Part shown: positions 5,672-31,275 of the stretch, one piece after another
How the letters are laid out: every line of letters starts with the position of its first letter
How positions within the stretch are numbered: the stretch's first letter is position 1
Assembly (NCBI RefSeq): GCF_050320075.1
Contig: NZ_CP190018.1
DNA from: Escherichia coli
GTDB taxonomy: Bacteria > Pseudomonadota > Gammaproteobacteria > Enterobacterales > Enterobacteriaceae
Strand: one strand, 5' to 3'
DNA: 64,000 nucleotides
Made by a program: the position numbers and the translations under genes
The notes under the pieces: model-generated
What the model was told of the DNA's origin: nothing
Databases searched by the model: none
Seen by the model: the letters and a program-made list of their open reading frames with translations, nothing else

Positions 5672-5995
5672 GCAGAACGCAAAGCCGCGCAGCGCGCTCG
5701 GCAGTCCGCCGCCGGTGAGCGCAAAATTGAACTGGTGCTGGATAAGCAGGAGCAGGAAATGCTGGAGCGTAACTGTGCCACGCGTCGCCCCGGGCGTGCG
5801 CCTTACGAATTTGGGGAGTATATAGCGTTACTGATCCGCCAGGATGATGCACGCGTGCGCGGGCGTATAAAATCGATTAGCAGAAAACGTTGCGGTAAGT
5901 GCGGCGAGAAAGTTCCCGTTAATTCATGCCCGTGTAATGGTGACTCGCAATGCTGGGTGACTAAAGGCTGGCATGAAACGAAATTAATAGTGTGA
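5657..5995 (+). CDS. Hypothetical protein with C-terminal Cys cluster (CGKCGEKVPVNSCPCNGDSQC); possible regulator
   Basis: ORF 5648..5995, likely GTG start at 5657; stop TGA lies inside the GTGACATGTCAC palindrome. Confidence 0.4.
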   Translation: MAKSPAERKAAQRARQSAAGERKIELVLDKQEQEMLERNCATRRPGRAPYEFGEYIALLIRQDDARVRGRIKSISRKRCGKCGEKVPVNSCPCNGDSQCWVTKGWHETKLIV

Positions 5996-6003
5996 CATGT
6001 CAC
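5992..6003. repeat. Perfect 12-bp palindrome GTGACATGTCAC (copy 1)
   Basis: Read directly; overlaps the stop codon at 5993-5995 and precedes the terminator at 6045. Confidence 0.9.
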
Positions 6004-8232: not shown

Positions 8233-8259
8233 AGCCAGCTCATCGGCTGGCTGTTTGTG
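8233..8259. terminator. Bidirectional terminator hairpin
   Basis: AGCCAGC-TCATCG-GCTGGCT flanked by T-rich runs on both strands; ends + strand terminase transcription and the minus-strand gene 8273..8644. Confidence 0.6.
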
Positions 8260-8268
8260 ACATGTCAC
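8257..8268. repeat. Perfect 12-bp palindrome GTGACATGTCAC (copy 2)
   Basis: Read directly; between the stop of minus gene 8273..8644 and the terminator hairpin. Confidence 0.9.
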
Positions 8269-11253: not shown

Positions 11254-11546
11254 CAGATTACGAAGACGATCAACTGAAAGAAGAAAACGCCCGTAAGCAA
11301 CGTGACATGGCACAGCGTGAAATTGATGACATTCGCTTTGTCATGAGCTGTGAACAGGGGCGTCGGGTTGTCTGGTCGGTACTGGAGAAAGGCCGTGTGT
11401 TTTCCGCTATCTCGCCGATGGACGCTATGGCAATGGCATTTAATGAGGGGCAACGCAATCTGGCGCTGGAACTGTTTCAGCGCGTTATGGCGCATTGCCC
11501 TGAACAGTATTTGAAGATGGCCAAAGAGGCCAGTGAACAGGAGTGA
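11250..11546 (+). CDS. Hypothetical head-morphogenesis protein
   Basis: 98 aa ORF overlapping the portal stop. Confidence 0.45.
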   Translation: MTDYEDDQLKEENARKQRDMAQREIDDIRFVMSCEQGRRVVWSVLEKGRVFSAISPMDAMAMAFNEGQRNLALELFQRVMAHCPEQYLKMAKEASEQE

Positions 11547-20844: not shown

Positions 20845-22542
20845 ATGCCAATTTACACAGATGATCCGGGACAGGGCATTAACCAGCCAATTGGCAACGC
20901 GCCAGCAGGGCTTGGCGAATCGCTGCTTTCTTCCCTTAAGCAGGGATTTGAAGAGGGGCCGGTCATGTCCGGCTACCGCTTTGCGCAGGTCGACTCGCTG
21001 GCGAATGACCCAAACTCTACAGTTATCAGTAAGCAGGACGCAGATGAGCTCCTGAAGCAGTACGGCGTAAAGAGCATAAACGTGCCAGATTCTGGCGTTA
21101 CGCAGGCTTTTCTCGATCATGTTATTGCCGAACGCAAAGATTCTCTGGCACGCCAGCAGATTGCGATGTCGGCACCGAGCGGGTGGGTAGCCACGCCGCT
21201 TAATTTCGCAGCCAGCCTAGCTGGTTCAATGGCAGATCCTGGTAACGTGGCGCTGGCGCTGGTTCCGTTCGCTGGAGAAGCAAAGGCAGCTTCTGTGCTT
21301 GGCCGATTTGGCGAGCGATTTGTTGCGGGTGCACGCATGGGGGCAGCGCAGGCGGTGGTGACCGTGCCGTTTACCGGGCTGGCAGCGGCGGCGGAAGGTG
21401 ACGACTTCACCTATAGCAACGCGTTGGAAAGTACTTTCTTTAACACGATGGCTGGCGGTCTAATGCATGCCGGCGGCGGCCTTATCGCCGATATCGTGCG
21501 ACCGCGTCGCGTTCCCGATGCTGCAACGGGAGAGTCCCCGGCGTTTTCTGGCGATGCGCAGCCAACCCCGGTGATAACGCCTGACAACATTCCGGCGGGC
21601 GTGAATATCCCTGAGGTTGGCGCTAACGCAGATCTGGCGGCGGCCATTTCCAGTGAAGCGGAGAGCTACGCATACAGCCGGGCTTATGACGACGTGGTTC
21701 CTGACTATATGGCGCGCCAGCAGGAGTTACAGAGCGGACAGATCGGTAACGTTGCCGACCTGCGTGCCGAGCTTGCGGCTAATCAACGTCATGCTGACTC
21801 GCTTGATGCGACTCTGCAGCAGCGCACCAAAAAGTATCAGGGGCAGCGGATGAAGTTTAAGGATGCGCGCTCTAGGGCACTGAAAGAGATTCAGGCCGAG
21901 AAAGACGCCATCGCTGCACGCAATCAGGAGATCAACACATCGCTGGAGCAGAACGCGACAGCAGAGCAGGCGCGCTGGCACCAGTCTCAGATTTCCCGCG
22001 GCGAGATCCCCGACGACCTGAAAGTCACCATTTCCGAGCGTGCGCAGCAGATCCTGGACGGCATGCAGATGTCGCCGATCGCTGGCGCAGTTCGCACTGC
22101 CGCAAGCGCCATCAGGGATGCTGACTGGAGCGTGAACCAGCAGGCGTATCGCGCTGCGCTGGCACACATGATGGAAGGACGTAGCCCAGATGTTGAGCCC
22201 TTCTATGAACTGCACAAATCGGCACTGCGTGAACGCGCCATCCATCGCATACAGAACCCGGCACGGCAGGTTGATGAAACGGCTCGCCCAGTAAGCGAAA
22301 CAGCCGATCGGGTTTATCAAGAAACGCAAAAGGCAGATCATGAAATTACCGCTGCCGCTGCAGACCTTGATAACGAGCTCAACCTGAGTAACGCCCTGCT
22401 TGACGATATCGCTGTCGATAACCCTGATCTTGCGACCACGTTGCGCCAGAAACTCAATGATATTCGTGCCGACGCCAGCGACAATAGCATGAGCAACGCT
22501 TTCCGGGCATTTGCCGCCTGTATGATTAACCGGGGGATGTGA
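20845..22542 (+). CDS. Putative ejection/internal virion protein
   Basis: 565 aa, Ala-rich, coupled. Confidence 0.45.
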   Translation: MPIYTDDPGQGINQPIGNAPAGLGESLLSSLKQGFEEGPVMSGYRFAQVDSLANDPNSTVISKQDADELLKQYGVKSINVPDSGVTQAFLDHVIAERKDSLARQQIAMSAPSGWVATPLNFAASLAGSMADPGNVALALVPFAGEAKAASVLGRFGERFVAGARMGAAQAVVTVPFTGLAAAAEGDDFTYSNALESTFFNTMAGGLMHAGGGLIADIVRPRRVPDAATGESPAFSGDAQPTPVITPDNIPAGVNIPEVGANADLAAAISSEAESYAYSRAYDDVVPDYMARQQELQSGQIGNVADLRAELAANQRHADSLDATLQQRTKKYQGQRMKFKDARSRALKEIQAEKDAIAARNQEINTSLEQNATAEQARWHQSQISRGEIPDDLKVTISERAQQILDGMQMSPIAGAVRTAASAIRDADWSVNQQAYRAALAHMMEGRSPDVEPFYELHKSALRERAIHRIQNPARQVDETARPVSETADRVYQETQKADHEITAAAADLDNELNLSNALLDDIAVDNPDLATTLRQKLNDIRADASDNSMSNAFRAFAACMINRGM

Positions 22543-25091
22543 TGGCAGCAAACGAATTTTTGACGCAGTGCGAGCGCAGTGTAAATGCTGCCGCTGGTCG
22601 CGAGCTTTCTTCCGATGAGATGGAGTCGCTGGTGCGTGACATGAACGACACCACTAGGCGAATTCTGGCGACCAATGAGGCGCTGTCTCTGGAAGAGGCC
22701 GCGATGCGCGCAGCGGAAGAACTGAGCAATGCCGATATGCTGGCAAAACAGATTGAGTCCCGCAATAAGGCAATCAACACCCGTATTGCCGCACAACGAC
22801 TTAGAGAGCTTCGTACTATCTGGAAAGACCGCCCGGATATCGGGCTTGAAGCAATGCTGGTTGGCCGCAACGATGCGCGTACCGGCGCCCGCCGGTCGGT
22901 ATCTTCGGAGGTGGCGCAACTGCGCGGCAAGTATCATTCCGGTATCAACTACGATTTTGACCGTGCCGGGCTGGTGCAATTCATCGCCAGCGGCAGCAAT
23001 GACAGGGAAATTGCCGATGCAATGTGGCGCATAGGGCGCGGGCAGTCAACTGACGGTATGACAAGGCAATCCGTAAGCGCTGCACAAATCATCATGAAAT
23101 GGCAGGAAACTGCGCACATTGATGAGAACCGCGCCGGGGCATGGATACGCAAAGAGCCGGGCTATATAGTGCGCCAGTCACACGACATCATGAAGATCCG
23201 CGCCGCAGGTTATGAAGCATGGCGAAATGCTATTCTCCCGCGCCTTGATGAGCGCACTTTTGACGGCGTGGCTGACCGCGAGCAGTTCATGCGTAACATT
23301 TATAACGGGCTGGCTTCCGGCGTGCATCTTACATCTGAAAAGCCCGATTGGATGAATGGCTTTAAGGGATCGGCGAACGCAGCTAAACGCGCCAGCCAAG
23401 AGCGAATTTTGCACTTCAAAGATGGTATCTCGTGGCACGAGTACAACCAGCAATTCGGCACCGGCAGCCTGCGAGAGGCGCTGTTTGGTGGCTTAAACAG
23501 CGCTGCCCGCACAACGGGCATGATGCGCGTACTGGGCACTAACCCACAGAACATGTTTAAGTACCTGACGGACACCATTGCTGAAGATATCAGCAAATCC
23601 GGAAGACCGGCAGCGTTGGCTGACTACATGACGAAGGTGCGTCGCATTAACCGTACCGTAATGCCGCAGGTTGACGGCTCGCTAAATATTCCTGGCAGCG
23701 TAGGCTGGGCCAATGCGTCGGCGGCTGTACGCGGCTGGTTGCGTATGAGCCAGCTTGGTGGCGCGGTAATCTCATCGTTTAACGACGTGCCTATCGCCGC
23801 TACCGAGATGCGCTACCAAGGGCAGAATTTTATGCAGGCGTTGCTTGGTGCTATGAGAGGCCGCTTCACGCGTTACAACAGCGCGGAGCAGAAAGAGATC
23901 CTTTCCTCTATCGGAGTTTATTCCGACTCCATGACGCAGGAAATCATCCGGCGTATATCTGGTGATGACACGCTGAATGGAAAACTTGGTCGCGCGCAGC
24001 AGCTTTTCTTTAAGTACAACCTCATGAACTTCTGGACCGAGAGCGGTCGCAACAGCAACGCCATGATGATAACCAACTGGCTTGCAAAGAATGCTGACCA
24101 GCCTCATGCGCGGCTACCGGAAGACCTGCGACGCGTGCTGGATCTGCACGGTATTGGCGAACGTGAGTGGGAAATTTTTCGCAACATGGACATGGCCGAT
24201 AGCGAAGGTCGTAAGTTCATGACGACCAGCGGCATCCGCGGCGTGCCTGACGAAGTGATTGCCGGTTATGTAGAGAGTAAGGGGATCAAGCCAACGCAGC
24301 GCGCTATCGCTGACGCACGCGATCAATTGGAAGGGCAGTTGCGCGGCTACATCCTTGACCGCCTGAATATCGCCATGTCAGAGCCTGGCGATCGCACGCA
24401 GGCGTTTATGAAGATGGGCACGGTGCCAGGAACGGTGGCTGGGGAAGCAATACGATTCGCTGGTCAGTACAAATCGTTCACTGCAAGCTTCATGCAGAAC
24501 GTACTAGGACGCGAAGTATTCGGGCGTGGTTATATTCCTGCTGGGCTTGGTGAGTCGAAAACCGGATCGCTGACGAATGCTCTGCTGCGTAACGGGAAGG
24601 GGGCTTTCCTTGGTGCTGCAAACCTCTTTGTCTGGGCGACTATGTTTGGTTATATCTCCATGCAGTCAAAACTCATGCTGAAAGGGCAAACACCACGCCC
24701 GGCAGATGCCAAGACGTTTCTCGCAGCCGCATCTCAGGGGGGCGGTCTTGGCATCTTGGGTGACTTCATGTTTGGCGAGGTCAACCGCATGGGGGCCGGG
24801 CCGGTTACGTCGCTAATGGGACCGGCAGCATCGAACGCTGACAGCATTATCACGCTGCTCCAGCAGACCACGAGAGGGGATGCAGATTTGGGTGACTGGT
24901 ATCGCACGGCACTTGACAATACGCCATTCCTCAACGTGTTCTGGCTTCGTACGGCGATGAATGGTTTAATATTGAACCGGATACAAGATGCCCTTGACCC
25001 AGGCTCTCTTGAGCGTTATCAGCGCCGTGTTGAGCGTGAGCAGGGTAACGAATTTCTGATCCCACCATCGCAGTTCATGCTAGGGAAGTAA
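22539..25091 (+). CDS. Putative ejection/internal virion protein
   Basis: 850 aa, coupled. Confidence 0.45.
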   Translation: MMAANEFLTQCERSVNAAAGRELSSDEMESLVRDMNDTTRRILATNEALSLEEAAMRAAEELSNADMLAKQIESRNKAINTRIAAQRLRELRTIWKDRPDIGLEAMLVGRNDARTGARRSVSSEVAQLRGKYHSGINYDFDRAGLVQFIASGSNDREIADAMWRIGRGQSTDGMTRQSVSAAQIIMKWQETAHIDENRAGAWIRKEPGYIVRQSHDIMKIRAAGYEAWRNAILPRLDERTFDGVADREQFMRNIYNGLASGVHLTSEKPDWMNGFKGSANAAKRASQERILHFKDGISWHEYNQQFGTGSLREALFGGLNSAARTTGMMRVLGTNPQNMFKYLTDTIAEDISKSGRPAALADYMTKVRRINRTVMPQVDGSLNIPGSVGWANASAAVRGWLRMSQLGGAVISSFNDVPIAATEMRYQGQNFMQALLGAMRGRFTRYNSAEQKEILSSIGVYSDSMTQEIIRRISGDDTLNGKLGRAQQLFFKYNLMNFWTESGRNSNAMMITNWLAKNADQPHARLPEDLRRVLDLHGIGEREWEIFRNMDMADSEGRKFMTTSGIRGVPDEVIAGYVESKGIKPTQRAIADARDQLEGQLRGYILDRLNIAMSEPGDRTQAFMKMGTVPGTVAGEAIRFAGQYKSFTASFMQNVLGREVFGRGYIPAGLGESKTGSLTNALLRNGKGAFLGAANLFVWATMFGYISMQSKLMLKGQTPRPADAKTFLAAASQGGGLGILGDFMFGEVNRMGAGPVTSLMGPAASNADSIITLLQQTTRGDADLGDWYRTALDNTPFLNVFWLRTAMNGLILNRIQDALDPGSLERYQRRVEREQGNEFLIPPSQFMLGK

Positions 25092-25092
25092 T

Positions 25093-25464
25093 ATGAACAG
25101 AATTATATTAATGATTATTCTTATGCTTTTAGCTGTAAAATCTTTTGCAGATACTACCTCACCGTTAATGATTCAGCCTAAAAATGGGGAAACACTGGAG
25201 GACTCTAAAAAGCATACAATGGAATATTTTGGATGTATAAAAGGGCAGGCCGTAAAATACGCTAAGACAGGAGAAAGTGTTGATTCTATATCCAAAGCTT
25301 CGGTTGTGTCATGCGAGTCGTACATACAAAAGATTGCTGAATCAAATATATACTATTTAAATTCCTCTCAAGACGGTAAGCGGAAATTTATTGGAAGGCT
25401 TAAATCAGATGGTGAAAATTTAGCAACGAAATTTGCTATGGATGAAAAGCTAAAAAATAAATAG
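25093..25464 (+). CDS. AT-rich moron: small secreted/periplasmic protein (signal peptide MNRIILMIILMLLAVKSFA)
   Basis: 123 aa; visibly lower GC than flanking genes; N-terminal signal-peptide-like segment. Confidence 0.55.
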   Translation: MNRIILMIILMLLAVKSFADTTSPLMIQPKNGETLEDSKKHTMEYFGCIKGQAVKYAKTGESVDSISKASVVSCESYIQKIAESNIYYLNSSQDGKRKFIGRLKSDGENLATKFAMDEKLKNK

Positions 25465-25471
25465 GTGACAC

Positions 25472-25768
25472 ATGCAAGCGATAGGATTCATTGTTTATAT
25501 CGTCGTTGGTCTTTTTCAGTTGGCAGCAATTATGGCTGGGCTTGAATCATGGTGGGGATTGCACTGGATAATTGCAGCCCCCATTGCTTTCATCGTGAGC
25601 TATATTCCATTTGTTGGAGCGATTGTTGGTATGGTTGGTGCTGTGGATGTATGGCGGTGGGAGTGGTGGCAGGCTGGCCTTCTCTTCTTTGGTGGGATCA
25701 TCTTTGCTATTGTCTGCGGTGGAATGTCATCATTTTTCGAACGGCTATCATTCAGAAAAGGAACGTGA
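25472..25768 (+). CDS. Small integral membrane protein (about 3 TM helices)
   Basis: 98 aa, hydrophobic segments; stop TGA inside the GTGACATGTCAC palindrome. Confidence 0.55.
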   Translation: MQAIGFIVYIVVGLFQLAAIMAGLESWWGLHWIIAAPIAFIVSYIPFVGAIVGMVGAVDVWRWEWWQAGLLFFGGIIFAIVCGGMSSFFERLSFRKGT

Positions 25769-25776
25769 CATGTCAC
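25765..25776. repeat. Perfect 12-bp palindrome GTGACATGTCAC (copy 3)
   Basis: Read directly; overlaps stop 25766-25768; followed by a terminator. Confidence 0.9.
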
Positions 25777-25800
25777 AGGCCGCTTTCGCGGCCTTGTTTT
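25777..25800 (+). terminator. Rho-independent terminator
   Basis: AGGCCGC-TTTC-GCGGCCT followed by TGTTTT. Confidence 0.65.
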
Positions 25801-25961
25801 TAACGAATGCCACCGCCACCCGGGCGGGAATCCGCAGAACGCCCACCGCAGCGGGAGCCGTCAGCGGCAGTATCGCTGTCGTGCTGACAACGACCGGCAA
25901 AGGCCTGAGTTGAAGCTACCAGAGACAACAAAACGAACAGTGCAGCAAATGCTTTTTTCAT
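25800..25961 (-). CDS. Candidate small secreted peptide, 53 aa (signal peptide MKKAFAALFVLLSLVASTQAFA + 31-aa Gly/Ser/Asp-rich part with 2 Cys)
   Basis: Internal ATG of track ORF 25800..26033; sigma70-like promoter on the minus strand (TTGACG 26002-25997, 16-nt spacer, TATAGA 25980-25975); weak RBS. Confidence 0.3.
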   Translation of the reverse strand: MKKAFAALFVLLSLVASTQAFAGRCQHDSDTAADGSRCGGRSADSRPGGGGIR

Positions 25962-26030
25962 TGTGAAATTTCCATCTATAAGCCACCTCAATGTGGCGTC
26001 AATGAGTGTAGCACTGACTTTTGTTTCGTC

Positions 26031-26054
26031 CACAAAAAAGCCCGCAGCGCGGGC
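26031..26054 (-). terminator. Rho-independent terminator ending the minus-strand accessory operon
   Basis: GCCCGC-AGC-GCGGGC immediately after stop 26055-26057, followed on the minus strand by CTTTTTTGT. Confidence 0.7.
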
Positions 26055-26603
26055 TTACTTTTCTTCAGGTTTGTTGTCTTCAGATTTCTTCTTGATGCTT
26101 GGTTTTTGTCTAAGAACGAAAATACCAGCCACTGCAACAACTGTACCGATCACTGTGCCAGCTAGAACTTCATGACCTGTTAAACCTAATAATGTTGCAC
26201 AAGCTACTGTAAAAATAGTTGCACTCAGGCCAAACCACTGCCCACGTTTATCTCTATTAATAGCCCCGTCAAGTGCCTTTTCCTCCATTTTCTGGCGGTG
26301 AGCAAACTCCTTCTCCGTCAGCTGGAAGATGCGTTCGGGGGCATCAGGTAAAATATCCTGATACCCGCGAAGCAGATAGGGGGGAGGAAGCGGACCCTGA
26401 AACGCATGGTGAGCGACAACTATCTCCTGAATTTCAGGGCGATCAAGAACTCTTGTGAAGGCATCTGGGTGTTGAATGATCTCGTTACTTAGCCCTTCCT
26501 CAACTTCCTCGAACTCAGTTTCTTCGTTATCACTTGGTTGCCCAATAGATTTTTGCATATTTGTCGAAGGACATTCCTTTAGCTTCTGGTTTTCCTCTTG
26601 CAT
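26055..26603 (-). CDS. Membrane protein: acidic N-terminal soluble domain plus C-terminal TM helices (possibly DUF2335-like)
   Basis: 182 aa; hydrophobic stretch WFGLSATIFTVACATLLGLTGHEVLAGTVIGTVVAVAGIFVL near the C-terminus; start 26603 or 26558. Confidence 0.5.
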   Translation of the reverse strand: MQEENQKLKECPSTNMQKSIGQPSDNEETEFEEVEEGLSNEIIQHPDAFTRVLDRPEIQEIVVAHHAFQGPLPPPYLLRGYQDILPDAPERIFQLTEKEFAHRQKMEEKALDGAINRDKRGQWFGLSATIFTVACATLLGLTGHEVLAGTVIGTVVAVAGIFVLRQKPSIKKKSEDNKPEEK

Positions 26604-27664: not shown

Positions 27665-27932
27665 AGTGATCACCTTTGTAGTTAGGTTAATCACCACTAC
27701 CGACGCCAATCGGTTGGTGGTGAACTGTGCAGGGTTGGCGTAACCGGCTACAAAGGACCCGGCGCACCTTTCGGTGCCCCCACACAGCCCACCATAGAAT
27801 AGGTGCGCTTTACACATAAAAAAAACCGCTTATGCGGCATATGTGCCTCTGTAGTAACTCGGGACGCCAATCCCGGCACTGGATTTTGCCAGTGCCCGAT
27901 TACTATGGCACAAGAGGAGTGCGTTGTAAATT

Positions 27933-28431: not shown

Positions 28432-31275
28432 ATGACGGTCTCAACCGAAGTTGACCACAACGAATACACAGGTAACGGCGTTACGACATCGTTTCCGTAT
28501 ACTTTTCGAATTTTCAGAAAATCAGACCTGGTTGTTCAGGTGTCTGACCTGAACGGGAACGTAACAGAATTGGTTCTGGATACCGGTTATACGGTAACTG
28601 GGGCGGGCACTTATAGTGGCGGTTCAGTGGTTCTGCCGTCTCCGCTTGCTGCTGGCTGGCGAATTACGATAGATCGTGTGCTTGATGTAGTGCAGGAGAC
28701 AGACCTCCGCAATCAGGGAAAGTTTTTCCCCGAAGTGCATGAAGATGCCTTTGACTACCTGACGATGCTGATCCAGCAATGTTTTGGGTGGTTCAGACGT
28801 GCATTGATGAAGCCCTCTCTGCTTGCAAAATATTACGATGCAAAGCAAAACAGAATTTCTAACCTTGCAGATCCATCACTTGAGCAGGACGCTGTAAATA
28901 ATCGCTCAATGCGTAATTATGTCGATGCTGCAATCGCCGGAGTTGTTGGTGGTTTTGGTTGGTTTATTCAGTATGGTTCTGGGGCAGTATATCGCACCTT
29001 CCAGGACAAGATGCGAGATGAAATAAATGTTCATGATTATGGTGCTATAGGTGATGGAAATTATCACCCGCTTTCTGAACGTTATTCATCGTTGGCTGCT
29101 GCGCAGCAACAATATCCATTTGCTACTTCCCTTGGTCAGTCTATTGACTGGGCTGCAATACAGGCAGCGATCAATGCCTCACAAGGCAGAAAGGTAAAAT
29201 TATTAGCAAAAACATACATTTCTACTGATGGATTCACTGGCGTTGATGGTCTTTGTTTAATTGGTGAAGGTGCTACCCCTTTTTACCTTAACTTTCAGGA
29301 CATTCCATACACCAACAATGGTGGTACTGACATTCTTTTCTATGGTACAGGCCAAAAGAACAGAAGCATTTATGGTATTTCGGATATGCAGCCATCCGGT
29401 GGTGTGAGGACAGATCCTGATTTAGGCGTGACTCATGCATTAACCAATATGACGAATGGAGACGCCAGCACTTCGGCGGCTGCAACCCCTCGAGCAGTAA
29501 GCGCTGGCTTATACCTTGAGCATTGCAAAGGCTGGCAAATTGAGGGAATCCGATTTGCTCCATATTTTAACGGGGTCGAATCATATACAGACCAGACTAA
29601 CTTAGGGCTGGCTGATGAATGGGATATCGGAATTCTCATCAATAGTTCTTATGATGGTGTAATGCGCGATGTTCGCGCGGTTGGGCACTGGCGAGTTGCT
29701 GGCCTGGCTGTGTTTGCAGGCGAAAATCCTTTCAACACAGGCGCGTCATCTTCATGTGAACGAAACAGATTTTTTTCCTGTCAGTTTAATGGAAAGTCTG
29801 GCGTTCTTATTCGCGGCGGGGATGCCTACCGGTGTACAGCAGTAACAGCTGACACTGTCGAAATTCCATGGCACGATTCAAACCCGTTCCGGCATACCGG
29901 TGGGGTATTTCTTGGGGCCTTTGGTGGCGCAACCTCTGCAAGCTATACCTATACCAGCGCAACGGTTACCGGTGATAAGCTGACGCTCCACGGAGTAAGC
30001 CCTAACCCTTTATCGAATGGTATGACAACATCTTCAGGGGTGTATACCGGTAGAAGTTATGGGTTCCAGGGTACGCAATTCTTTGGTTGTTACTTTGGCG
30101 GCCTTGAGCATCAGACTAACCGAGTGGCTACAGACCCGGCGCTTACCTCACCATTCCCTACGTCGTCAAAACCTGTCGAAATTTCAGGTGTTCCGGCAGG
30201 AAATATCAGGTTCTATGGTTGTACGCACATGACCCGGGAAGACTGTGTGTGGATGATCCATAACGCCTCAAATATCTACGACTTCGGAGGCTATTTTGAG
30301 GCCAAGCGAGCGATCACTGCTACTGGCGGCGGCTCGCGCATGGTAGCCATCGGTAATTGGCCTGATTACACCCCGACTGCAGAATCACCATATCCGTTTG
30401 GTACGGTCAGTAACATAAATATGTTCGGTTCGCAGGCTCTTAATTTCGTTGATATGTACCCTGTAGTTGCCCGTTCTACAGGTGTAACGCGCTTTACCTC
30501 CGGGATGTGGGATTGTAAGACCCTCTATAGCTCCGAGGCATTTCAGGATCTTGCTGACACCAACAACTATGTAATAAAGGGTTTACGAAACGAAAGCATA
30601 AGGTTCGAGGACGGAGCCGGCGGCCATCTTATGACCATGCAGAATATTGGCAATCTCCTGCTTGGTAAGCGCGCCAGATTTAACACCTCAACAGAGGATC
30701 GTTATCAGTTCTATCGACTCGATGGAACAACCATTTTCTTATCCCTCGATGGCACGATGTCCACGCCAGTAATGACTCTGGATGGAAACTTTGTCCCTGC
30801 AGTTGCCAATACAAGGTTGGTCGGAACTGCGGCCAAGCCCTTCTCGGGAGGTAATACCCAGACAGCTTATAACATCACTTCTGACCGGAACTACAAAACT
30901 GACTTTGGTGAAATTCCTGACGCCGTTCTGGATGCATGGGAATTGGTGCAGTATTCACAATATAAACTCAGGGATGCAGTTGCGTTGAAGGGGGAAGGCG
31001 CCAGATTACATGTCGGTGTTGTTGCACAGCAGGTGAAAGAGGCATTTGAATCAGTAGGGGTCGATCCTTTTGCATATGGCGTACTGTGCTACGACGAATG
31101 GTCTGGTCAGGAAGAAGTTATTGAGGACGGTGTCATTACGCAGCAAAAAGTGGAAGCAGGGAAGCGTTACAGTGTGCGCTACGAAGAGGCATATGCAATA
31201 GAGTCCGCCTTGCTTCGGAGAACTCATACCAGATTGGAGCAGCGCTTATCTTCTCTTGAAGAAAAATCAAAATAG
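28432..31275 (+). CDS. Tailspike/tail fibre protein with C-terminal intramolecular chaperone (peptidase S74-like) domain
   Basis: 947 aa; GGAG RBS; N-terminal virion-binding-like region; C-terminal region containing SDRNYK and GVVAQQVKEAFESVG resembles autocleaving chaperone domains. Confidence 0.7.
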   Translation: MTVSTEVDHNEYTGNGVTTSFPYTFRIFRKSDLVVQVSDLNGNVTELVLDTGYTVTGAGTYSGGSVVLPSPLAAGWRITIDRVLDVVQETDLRNQGKFFPEVHEDAFDYLTMLIQQCFGWFRRALMKPSLLAKYYDAKQNRISNLADPSLEQDAVNNRSMRNYVDAAIAGVVGGFGWFIQYGSGAVYRTFQDKMRDEINVHDYGAIGDGNYHPLSERYSSLAAAQQQYPFATSLGQSIDWAAIQAAINASQGRKVKLLAKTYISTDGFTGVDGLCLIGEGATPFYLNFQDIPYTNNGGTDILFYGTGQKNRSIYGISDMQPSGGVRTDPDLGVTHALTNMTNGDASTSAAATPRAVSAGLYLEHCKGWQIEGIRFAPYFNGVESYTDQTNLGLADEWDIGILINSSYDGVMRDVRAVGHWRVAGLAVFAGENPFNTGASSSCERNRFFSCQFNGKSGVLIRGGDAYRCTAVTADTVEIPWHDSNPFRHTGGVFLGAFGGATSASYTYTSATVTGDKLTLHGVSPNPLSNGMTTSSGVYTGRSYGFQGTQFFGCYFGGLEHQTNRVATDPALTSPFPTSSKPVEISGVPAGNIRFYGCTHMTREDCVWMIHNASNIYDFGGYFEAKRAITATGGGSRMVAIGNWPDYTPTAESPYPFGTVSNINMFGSQALNFVDMYPVVARSTGVTRFTSGMWDCKTLYSSEAFQDLADTNNYVIKGLRNESIRFEDGAGGHLMTMQNIGNLLLGKRARFNTSTEDRYQFYRLDGTTIFLSLDGTMSTPVMTLDGNFVPAVANTRLVGTAAKPFSGGNTQTAYNITSDRNYKTDFGEIPDAVLDAWELVQYSQYKLRDAVALKGEGARLHVGVVAQQVKEAFESVGVDPFAYGVLCYDEWSGQEEVIEDGVITQQKVEAGKRYSVRYEEAYAIESALLRRTHTRLEQRLSSLEEKSK

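What the first reader, a model, noticed from the sequence alone, without database searches (positions are those of the whole stretch)
25093..25768. AT-rich moron pair after the ejection-protein genes: secreted protein plus small membrane protein
The first gene is markedly more AT-rich than its neighbours and encodes a signal-peptide protein; the second encodes a 3-TM membrane protein. The pair sits where P22 carries sieA (between ejection-protein genes and the tailspike) and ends with the palindrome/terminator module. This makes it a candidate superinfection-exclusion or lysogenic-conversion cassette, with no recognisable family.
Basis: inference. Interest (0 to 1): 0.6.

Follow-up and report, generated by a model that had tools for sequence, protein, structure and literature searches.

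The report
Two small envelope genes ending a prophage's ejection operon
Two real, conserved small genes (one exported protein, one membrane protein) sit at the end of the DNA-ejection gene block of an E. coli prophage, in a spot where related phages swap unrelated small envelope-protein genes; they are plausible but untested blockers of rival phages, and they are neither a fixed pair nor relatives of the known P22 exclusion gene.

Summary
g1 (25093-25464, 123 aa) has 33.6% GC against 55-58% in its neighbours and a Sec-type signal peptide. g2 (25472-25768, 98 aa) is a predicted 3-TM protein. A 12-bp palindrome and an intrinsic terminator follow. The window is a Uetakevirus (epsilon15/phiV10-like) prophage of E. 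coli.

The "pair/cassette" reading is only partly right. g1 occurs in 6 of 5426 complete E. coli genomes and g2 in 215, and each occurs without the other. g1 starts 1 nt after the last ejection-protein gene, and no promoter was found, so both genes read as the tail of the late operon. P22 sieA, by contrast, is on the opposite strand with its own promoter. g2 shows no similarity to SieA.

In 80 related viral loci, the slot upstream of g2 holds at least five unrelated AT-rich genes, all encoding membrane or secreted proteins. Both genes are under purifying selection (dN/dS about 0.04-0.19). g1 belongs to a tiny unannotated family with two invariant cysteines and a confident helical model that has no informative fold match. 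g2 is PHROG 3075, of unknown function.

Best guess (about 0.4): envelope-resident accessory proteins that interfere with DNA entry by related podophages. Function is untested.

The parts
22539..25091 (+). Last large internal-virion/ejection-module gene (850 aa). It is context for the finding: g1 is physically coupled to it.
   Evidence: PHROG 684 'virion structural protein', E 3e-270. In all 18 IMG/VR g1 loci, and in the Klebsiella, Salmonella and metagenome loci, g1-family genes start 1 nt (12 nt in one locus) after such a 727-1129 aa ORF.
25093..25464 (+). g1: 123-aa precursor of a Sec-exported, about 104-aa periplasmic helical protein with two invariant cysteines (C48, C74). AT-rich.
   Evidence: ORF. 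GC 33.6%. AF2 pLDDT 87.8, helices 35-57, 63-73, 75-83 and 93-121. Family alignments. dN/dS 0.10-0.15.
25093..25149 (+). Predicted signal peptide of g1 (residues 1-19, cleavage after SFA).
   Evidence: Hydropathy 2.5-2.6 over residues 1-20. The sequence is variable but its character is conserved in homologues. Some homologues carry a lipobox instead, e.g. P0077 LSAC. Heuristic call, no SignalP.
25458..25471 (+). Conserved junction TAAATAGGTGAC(N)ACATG. It holds the g2 ribosome-binding site and is the mosaic breakpoint between the left (ejection + slot gene) and right (g2 + terminator) modules.
   Evidence: Megablast homology of most relatives begins at query position 559, i.e. window 25458. Alignment with SF-468 and phiv142-3. 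The same junction follows different upstream genes.
25472..25768 (+). g2: 98-aa predicted 3-TM inner-membrane protein with a Trp-rich periplasmic loop (VWRWEWWQ) and a basic C-terminus.
   Evidence: PHROG 3075, E 5e-54. Alignment of 26 homologues. AF2 pLDDT 90.2. dN/dS 0.04-0.19.
25765..25776 (.). 12-bp perfect palindrome GTGACATGTCAC that marks the end of the operon.
   Evidence: Three exact copies in the window against 0.17 expected. Present after the last gene of the operon in 76 of 80 g2 loci. In Klebsiella-type loci it comes directly after g1. It also occurs in epsilon15.
25777..25802 (+). Intrinsic terminator (AGGCCGC-TTTC-GCGGCCT plus TGTTTTT) ending the late/ejection operon.
   Evidence: Terminator scan. 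RNA fold. The homologous site is annotated as a terminator in phiV10 and epsilon15.

Best explanation
The region is the 3' end of the virion/ejection-protein (late) operon of a Uetakevirus prophage. It carries two independent accessory genes rather than one cassette.

g1 fills an AT-rich, hypervariable slot directly behind the last ejection-protein gene. It encodes a Sec-exported periplasmic helical-bundle protein, probably with one disulfide. g2 belongs to the adjacent, more widespread module and encodes a 3-TM inner-membrane protein. Both are probably transcribed with the late operon and stop at the palindrome/terminator.

Inferred mechanism, not shown: once in the envelope, they interfere with the trans-envelope DNA conduit that incoming related podophages build from their ejection proteins. 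g2 would act at the inner membrane in the manner of P22 SieA. g1 would act in the periplasm in the manner of T4 Spackle. The result would be superinfection exclusion of the infected or induced cell, and of the lysogen if there is basal expression.
For: Shown:
- Gene anatomy and composition.
- Uetakevirus context with internal-virion/SLT genes upstream.
- Purifying selection on both genes.
- Independent distribution of g1 and g2.
- The slot upstream of g2 holds a 57-aa 2-TM ORF (65 of 80 loci), g1-family genes (9), a 103-aa TM protein (4), a 175-aa secreted protein (1) or a 54-aa 2-TM ORF (1). All have 34-37% GC in about 55% GC phages.
- epsilon15 gp18 and phiV10 p21, both small 2-TM proteins, occupy the same place.
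- Distant g1 homologues (about 30-45% identity) and g2 homologues (about 55-60%) keep the same position behind different ejection modules, including a different podovirus type whose locus starts with a gene showing a faint T7_gp14 hit.
- A Cronobacter prophage whose 849-aa gene is 93% identical lacks g1, so g1 is dispensable for that ejection module.

Precedents:
[quoted passage not shown] It blocks the gp16/gp20 conduit (PMC10883804).
- T4 Spackle is a small signal-peptide-bearing periplasmic helical bundle with one disulfide that inhibits the tail lysozyme (PMC7677548).
Against: - No functional data exist.
- There is no homology to SieA, to Spackle or any PDB or viral structure, or to PADLOC defence models.
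- No promoter was found upstream, and g1 is translationally packed against the late operon. Expression in the repressed lysogen, the classic requirement for exclusion, is therefore not indicated.
- Near-identical g2 accompanies different ejection-module types, so there is no sign of target-specific co-evolution.
- Envelope localisation is equally compatible with other roles.
Confidence: 0.4

Rival explanations
1. Lysogenic-conversion or host-fitness morons unrelated to phage exclusion, in the manner of lambda Bor/Lom. The envelope proteins would alter host surface physiology, stress tolerance or virulence.
For: g1 has foreign AT-rich composition and patchy distribution, and its products are envelope-targeted. 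One g1 homologue lies outside a phage structural operon, next to a Rep3 replication gene in Sodalis.
Against: No own promoter was detected, and the genes are embedded in the late operon. Both families keep a fixed position immediately after ejection genes across diverged phages, which points to a phage-cycle role. g2 is independent of tail-fibre or receptor type: endosialidase, P22-tail-like and other fibres are seen.
Confidence: 0.2
2. g2, and perhaps the small TM proteins of the slot, is a holin-like or antiholin-like lysis-timing protein made late in infection.
For: 98 aa, three predicted TM helices, N-out/C-in, charged C-terminal tail. Late-operon placement. Weak Pfam hit to Phage_holin_5_2, E 0.027.
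Against: The Pfam hit is not significant. The phage already has a complete lysis cassette elsewhere, with two holin-family genes and a GH19 endolysin after the tail fibre. g2 is absent from many Uetakeviruses, including phiV10, epsilon15 and Klebsiella prophages.
Confidence: 0.12
3. They are helpers of the phage's own virion assembly or own DNA delivery, for example envelope factors that work with the ejection proteins.
For: Tight physical linkage of g1 to the last ejection gene in every locus. g1 divergence roughly tracks divergence of the ejection module.
Against: A Sec signal peptide and a very hydrophobic 3-TM protein would leave the cytoplasm where virions assemble. There is presence/absence polymorphism next to near-identical ejection modules. 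Unrelated genes substitute in the same slot.
Confidence: 0.08

Closest known systems
P22 SieA (superinfection exclusion, Lederbergvirus)
   Same: It is encoded between the last ejection-protein gene and the tailspike/antirepressor (immI-type) region. It is a small multi-pass inner-membrane protein, like g2.
   Different: There is no sequence similarity (BLASTP E = 19). The cytoplasmic motif FxRYPxEAxxFNK is absent from g2 (read from the sequence). SieA is 162-164 aa against 98 aa for g2. sieA is on the opposite strand with its own promoter, whereas g2 is co-oriented with the late operon and has no detected promoter upstream of it.
T4 Spackle (gp61.3)
   Same: Like g1, it has a signal peptide and is a small periplasmic alpha-helical bundle with a single disulfide. 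Its phage carries a virion-borne muralytic domain; here that is the 898-aa SLT protein.
epsilon15 gp18, phiV10 p21 and the unannotated 57-aa ORF of phiv142-3/SF-468
   Same: Same slot, directly after the last ejection gene and before the palindrome/terminator. All are small envelope-targeted products of unknown function.
   Different: These are unrelated sequences: 2-TM peptides of 46-64 aa, against a secreted 123-aa protein (g1) and a 3-TM 98-aa protein (g2).
Morons of lambdoid phages (Hendrix/Juhala sense)
   Same: Genes present in some relatives and absent in others. g1 has deviant base composition. A terminator lies at the 3' end.
   Different: No dedicated promoter was detected, and g1 starts 1 nt from the upstream stop. 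Expression from the prophage is unknown.

Membership tests
P22 SieA family (types A/B/C) | Sequence homology, including the conserved cytoplasmic motif FxRYPxEAxxFNK | tested here: not met
   BLASTP of g2 against P22 SieA gives E = 19. The motif is not present in the g2 or g1 sequences.
P22 SieA family (types A/B/C) | Gene located between the last ejection-protein gene and the tailspike | tested here: met
P22 SieA family (types A/B/C) | Own promoter and expression from the prophage (in P22 the gene is on the strand opposite the late operon) | tested here: not met
   Both genes are co-oriented with the late operon. The spacing is 1 nt and 7 nt. No + strand promoter-like site lies upstream of either gene. 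Actual expression was not testable.
P22 SieA family (types A/B/C) | Blocks DNA injection by related phages | not testable with these tools
   Needs plating and DNA-entry assays.
T4 Spackle | Sequence or fold homology to Spackle | tested here: not met
T4 Spackle | Exported small helical bundle with a disulfide | tested here: inconclusive
   Predicted only: signal-peptide features, AF2 helical model with pLDDT 87.8, and C48/C74 as the only invariant residues apart from the initiator Met across the extended family.
T4 Spackle | Binds and inhibits the virion muralytic domain | not testable with these tools
   Needs biochemistry with the 898-aa SLT protein.
Moron (extra gene with its own promoter and terminator, expressed from the prophage) | Present or absent among close relatives, with deviant composition | tested here: met
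   g1 is in 6 of 5426 E. coli genomes, with GC 33.6% against about 55%. The slot holds at least 5 alternative genes. For g2 the composition signal is weaker (46.5%).
Moron (extra gene with its own promoter and terminator, expressed from the prophage) | Own promoter upstream | tested here: not met
   The consensus scan found no + strand site upstream of g1 or g2. A weak or non-sigma-70 promoter cannot be excluded.
Class I holins | Significant match to a holin family, and a position next to the endolysin | tested here: not met
   Best Pfam hit is Phage_holin_5_2 at E 0.027. The lysis cassette lies after the tail fibre.
PHROG 3075 (unknown function) | Full-length profile match | tested here: met
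   g2: E 5.4e-54, residues 1-98 against profile positions 1-98.

The most novel reading that the evidence does not exclude
The slot behind the ejection genes of epsilon15-like podophages is a diversifying arsenal of anti-injection proteins. On this reading, the g1 family is a new class of periplasmic inhibitor that binds the ejected internal-virion proteins of incoming relatives, for example their SLT muralytic domain. It would be a Spackle-like mechanism invented independently in temperate podoviruses. g2 would be a minimal analogue of SieA.
Probability: 0.2. Interest if true: 0.6.

Novelty: new member of a known kind. Interest (0 to 1): 0.33.

Why it matters
If the exclusion reading is right, these genes would give a second experimentally tractable example, after P22 SieA, of defence aimed at the poorly understood ejection-protein conduit of short-tailed phages. 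They would also give a set of at least five or six interchangeable small envelope proteins to compare. This matters in practice because Uetakevirus prophages are common in E. coli, Klebsiella and Salmonella, and they could shape susceptibility to therapeutic podophages. If the reading is wrong, the locus is still a clean example of a mosaic, AT-rich accessory slot with unannotated genes. Either way it is not a surprise to specialists.

Tried and rejected
- Family searches for g1 found nothing in Pfam, NCBIfam, PHROGs or PADLOC. The extended alignment scanned member by member also found nothing.
- PDB sequence-profile searches gave only chance hits.
- tblastn of g1 against 50,697 phage records found no match.
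- The exhaustive representative search gave 17 hits. Two of them (P0075, a 2352-aa repeat protein, and P0086) are repeat-driven false positives and were discarded on inspection.
- The search for related loci with the divergent g1 alignment failed because there was no conserved stretch. It was rerun with the closer alignment.
- The epsilon15 annotated repressor operator is ATTACCnnnnnGGTAAT, not the palindrome seen here, so the idea that the palindrome is the repressor operator was rejected.
- A literature search for accessions and locus names of these genes returned nothing. The ZX5 Uetakevirus paper does not discuss them.
- The DUF2335 membrane protein on the minus strand was also compared with SieA and showed no similarity.

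Full report
**1. What is there**

The window region 24900-26100 is 100% identical to the chromosome of E. coli YZLc1-3. It lies in a prophage of the genus Uetakevirus, the epsilon15/phiV10 group; the closest phage records are HEMP4 and phiv142-3.

Upstream on the + strand are tail and internal-virion genes. These include two small internal virion proteins, an 898-aa protein with an SLT lytic-transglycosylase domain, a 565-aa protein and an 850-aa virion structural protein. This is the ejection-protein module.

- g1 (25093-25464, 123 aa) starts 1 nt after the stop of the 850-aa gene.
- g2 (25472-25768, 98 aa) follows 7 nt later.
- Each has its own Shine-Dalgarno sequence.
- The g2 stop codon is embedded in the perfect palindrome GTGACATGTCAC (25765-25776).
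- This runs straight into an intrinsic terminator at 25777-25794 plus a T-run.
- Beyond it, genes run on the minus strand: a 53-aa secreted peptide, a DUF2335 membrane protein, a 108-aa ORF, a BRO-N antirepressor and an 85-aa ORF. The tail fibre then follows on the + strand at 28432.

**2. The observation**

g1 has 33.6% GC (GC3 29.8%) against 55-58% (GC3 60-61%) for the two upstream genes. g2 has 46.5%.

g1 has a textbook Sec signal: MNR, a hydrophobic core, then SFA|D. In homologues this region varies in sequence but keeps its character, while the mature part is highly conserved. g2 is almost entirely hydrophobic. An AF2 model with pLDDT 90.2 gives three membrane-spanning helical segments, a Trp-rich loop (VWRWEWWQ) and a basic C-terminus.

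**3. They are real genes**

Pairwise dN/dS is 0.10-0.15 for g1 and 0.04-0.19 for g2 at unsaturated distances.

The g1 family is tiny. It has 22 clusters in 5.8 billion proteins and about 15 true representatives among 1.84 billion proteins, from enterobacterial genomes where a source is named and otherwise from unnamed assemblies and metagenomes. Across this extended family, down to about 25-30% identity, only the initiator Met and two cysteines (C48, C74) are invariant. Some members carry a lipobox instead of a plain signal peptide (P0077). Both features fit a periplasmic, disulfide-bonded protein.

**4. Not a pair**

| | g1 | g2 |
|---|---|---|
| Complete E. coli genomes (of 5426) | 6 | 215 |
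| Phage records (of 50,697) | 0 | 7 |

- Two of the six g1-bearing E. coli genomes lack g2.
- Klebsiella prophages carry g1 followed directly by the palindrome.
- Of 18 IMG/VR g1 loci, 8 have g2 and 10 do not.
- Nucleotide homology with most relatives begins at window 25458, right after the g1 stop.

So g1 belongs to the left-hand mosaic module, with the 848-850-aa ejection gene. g2 belongs to the right-hand module, with the palindrome/terminator and the 53-aa gene.

**5. A hypervariable slot**

In 80 IMG/VR loci containing g2, the gene between the last ejection gene and g2 is one of the following:

| Gene in the slot | Loci (of 80) |
|---|---|
| Unannotated 57-aa 2-TM ORF | 65 |
| g1-family gene, 123 aa | 7 |
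| Distant g1 homologue, 102 aa | 2 |
| 103-aa TM protein (PHROG 21905) | 4 |
| 175-aa secreted protein | 1 |
| 54-aa 2-TM ORF | 1 |

- The loci are not independent, so these counts are descriptive.
- All of these genes have 34-37% GC.
- epsilon15 gp18 (64 aa, 2 TM) and phiV10 p21 (46 aa, 2 TM) sit in the same place.
- In a Cronobacter prophage whose 849-aa gene is 93% identical to the one here, a 60%-identical g2 homologue sits directly in the g1 position. g1 is therefore dispensable for that ejection module.
- None of the alternative genes has a known function.
- Distant g1 homologues keep both the position (1-12 nt after the last large ORF of different ejection modules) and the low GC of 31-41%.
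- g2 homologues also follow the last internal-virion gene in a different Salmonella podovirus type.

**6. Comparison with sieA**

In P22, sieA lies between gene 16 and the immI/tailspike region, but on the opposite strand and with its own promoter. SieA is a 162-164-aa inner-membrane protein with a conserved cytoplasmic motif. It blocks the gp16/gp20 conduit (PMC10883804).

Here both genes are co-oriented with the late operon, there is no room for a promoter, and no + strand promoter-like site was found upstream of either gene. g2 shows no similarity to SieA. The analogy is therefore positional and topological only.

T4 Spackle is a signal-peptide-bearing helical bundle with one disulfide that inhibits the tail lysozyme (PMC7677548). 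It is a functional model for g1, but there is no sequence or fold relationship.

**7. Interpretation**

The anatomy is secure. These are two independent, selected, envelope-targeted accessory genes at the end of the late operon, and one of them sits in an AT-rich swap slot. The mechanism is inferred.

The combination of a fixed position next to the ejection genes, envelope localisation, rapid replacement by unrelated envelope proteins and the SieA/Spackle precedents makes interference with DNA entry of related phages the most likely role (about 0.4).

Rival explanations are host-directed lysogenic conversion (0.2), a holin-like lysis-timing role for g2 (0.12) and a helper of the phage's own assembly or delivery (0.08).

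The main weakness of the exclusion model is the lack of any sign of prophage expression. If the genes are late-only, they would protect the infected or induced cell rather than the lysogen.

**8. Verdict**

This is a new, uncharacterised member of a known kind (phage accessory envelope proteins, or morons). It is of moderate interest.

Noticed in passing
window 5992-6003, 8257-8268, 25765-25776 (exact); 11302-11313 (1 mismatch, inside an ORF): The 12-bp perfect palindrome GTGACATGTCAC occurs 3 times exactly, against 0.17 matches (exact or with one mismatch) expected. One copy lies just upstream of the small-terminase gene. One lies right after the terminator behind the large-terminase gene. 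One lies at the end of the ejection operon. The last two positions are conserved in epsilon15 (2142-2153, and after gp18). In Cronobacter the palindrome lies 3 nt past the stop codon, so it is not a coding constraint. It is not the annotated epsilon15 repressor operator. It is a candidate protein-binding or mosaic-boundary element at junctions of convergent transcription.
   Followed up: partly
window 27713-27908, minus strand: Rfam finds a C4 antisense RNA (79.5 bits, above gathering) and isrK (74.2 bits, above gathering), plus the a1/b1 C4 target at 44.3 bits, just under its gathering score of 46.7. All lie immediately upstream of the BRO-N antirepressor gene. The minus-strand block between g2 and the tail fibre is therefore a P1/P7-type immI (c4-ant) antirepressor operon.
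   Followed up: no
window 25800-25961, minus strand: A 53-aa ORF (MKKAFAALFVLLSLVASTQAFA...) has a signal peptide and a 31-aa Cys-containing mature peptide. It matches PHROG 3117 and PHROG 14503 'membrane associated protein'. It converges on the same terminator. This DNA segment is more widespread than g2 and may account for many of the 539 E. coli genomes that matched the 1.2-kb query.
   Followed up: no
window 26038-26603, minus strand: A DUF2335 membrane protein (182 aa, PHROG 3996 'membrane protein, moron') overlaps a 108-113-aa ORF (PHROG 10654). A bidirectional terminator lies at 26038-26056. These genes have the sieA-like orientation but show no similarity to SieA.
   Followed up: partly
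L003 4830-5003 (E. coli SF-468); the same ORF in phiv142-3 (L002) and 65 IMG/VR loci: A conserved 57-aa 2-TM ORF with a good Shine-Dalgarno sequence lies between the last ejection gene and g2. It is not annotated in RefSeq or GenBank. In phiv142-3 the g2 gene is instead annotated with an N-terminal extension (118 aa, Orf12).
   Followed up: partly
window 25283-25312 and 25111-25139, minus strand: There are antisense sigma-70-like promoter matches inside AT-rich g1, the first at 10 of 12 positions. These may be spurious intragenic promoters typical of AT-rich acquired DNA.
   Followed up: no
window 25093-25464 versus 22539-25091: Synonymous divergence of g1 between the E. coli and Klebsiella/Salmonella prophages (dS about 0.65-0.76) is less than half that of the adjacent 850-aa gene (dS about 1.6). 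The low GC persists in homologues that are only 30-45% identical. This suggests selection on the AT-rich nucleotide or codon composition itself.
   Followed up: partly
L008 6001-6369 (Sodalis sp. contig): A 61%-identical g1 homologue lies next to a Rep3 replication-initiator gene and RecT/DUF3799 genes rather than behind ejection genes. The family therefore also travels in another, possibly plasmid-like, mobile-element context.
   Followed up: no
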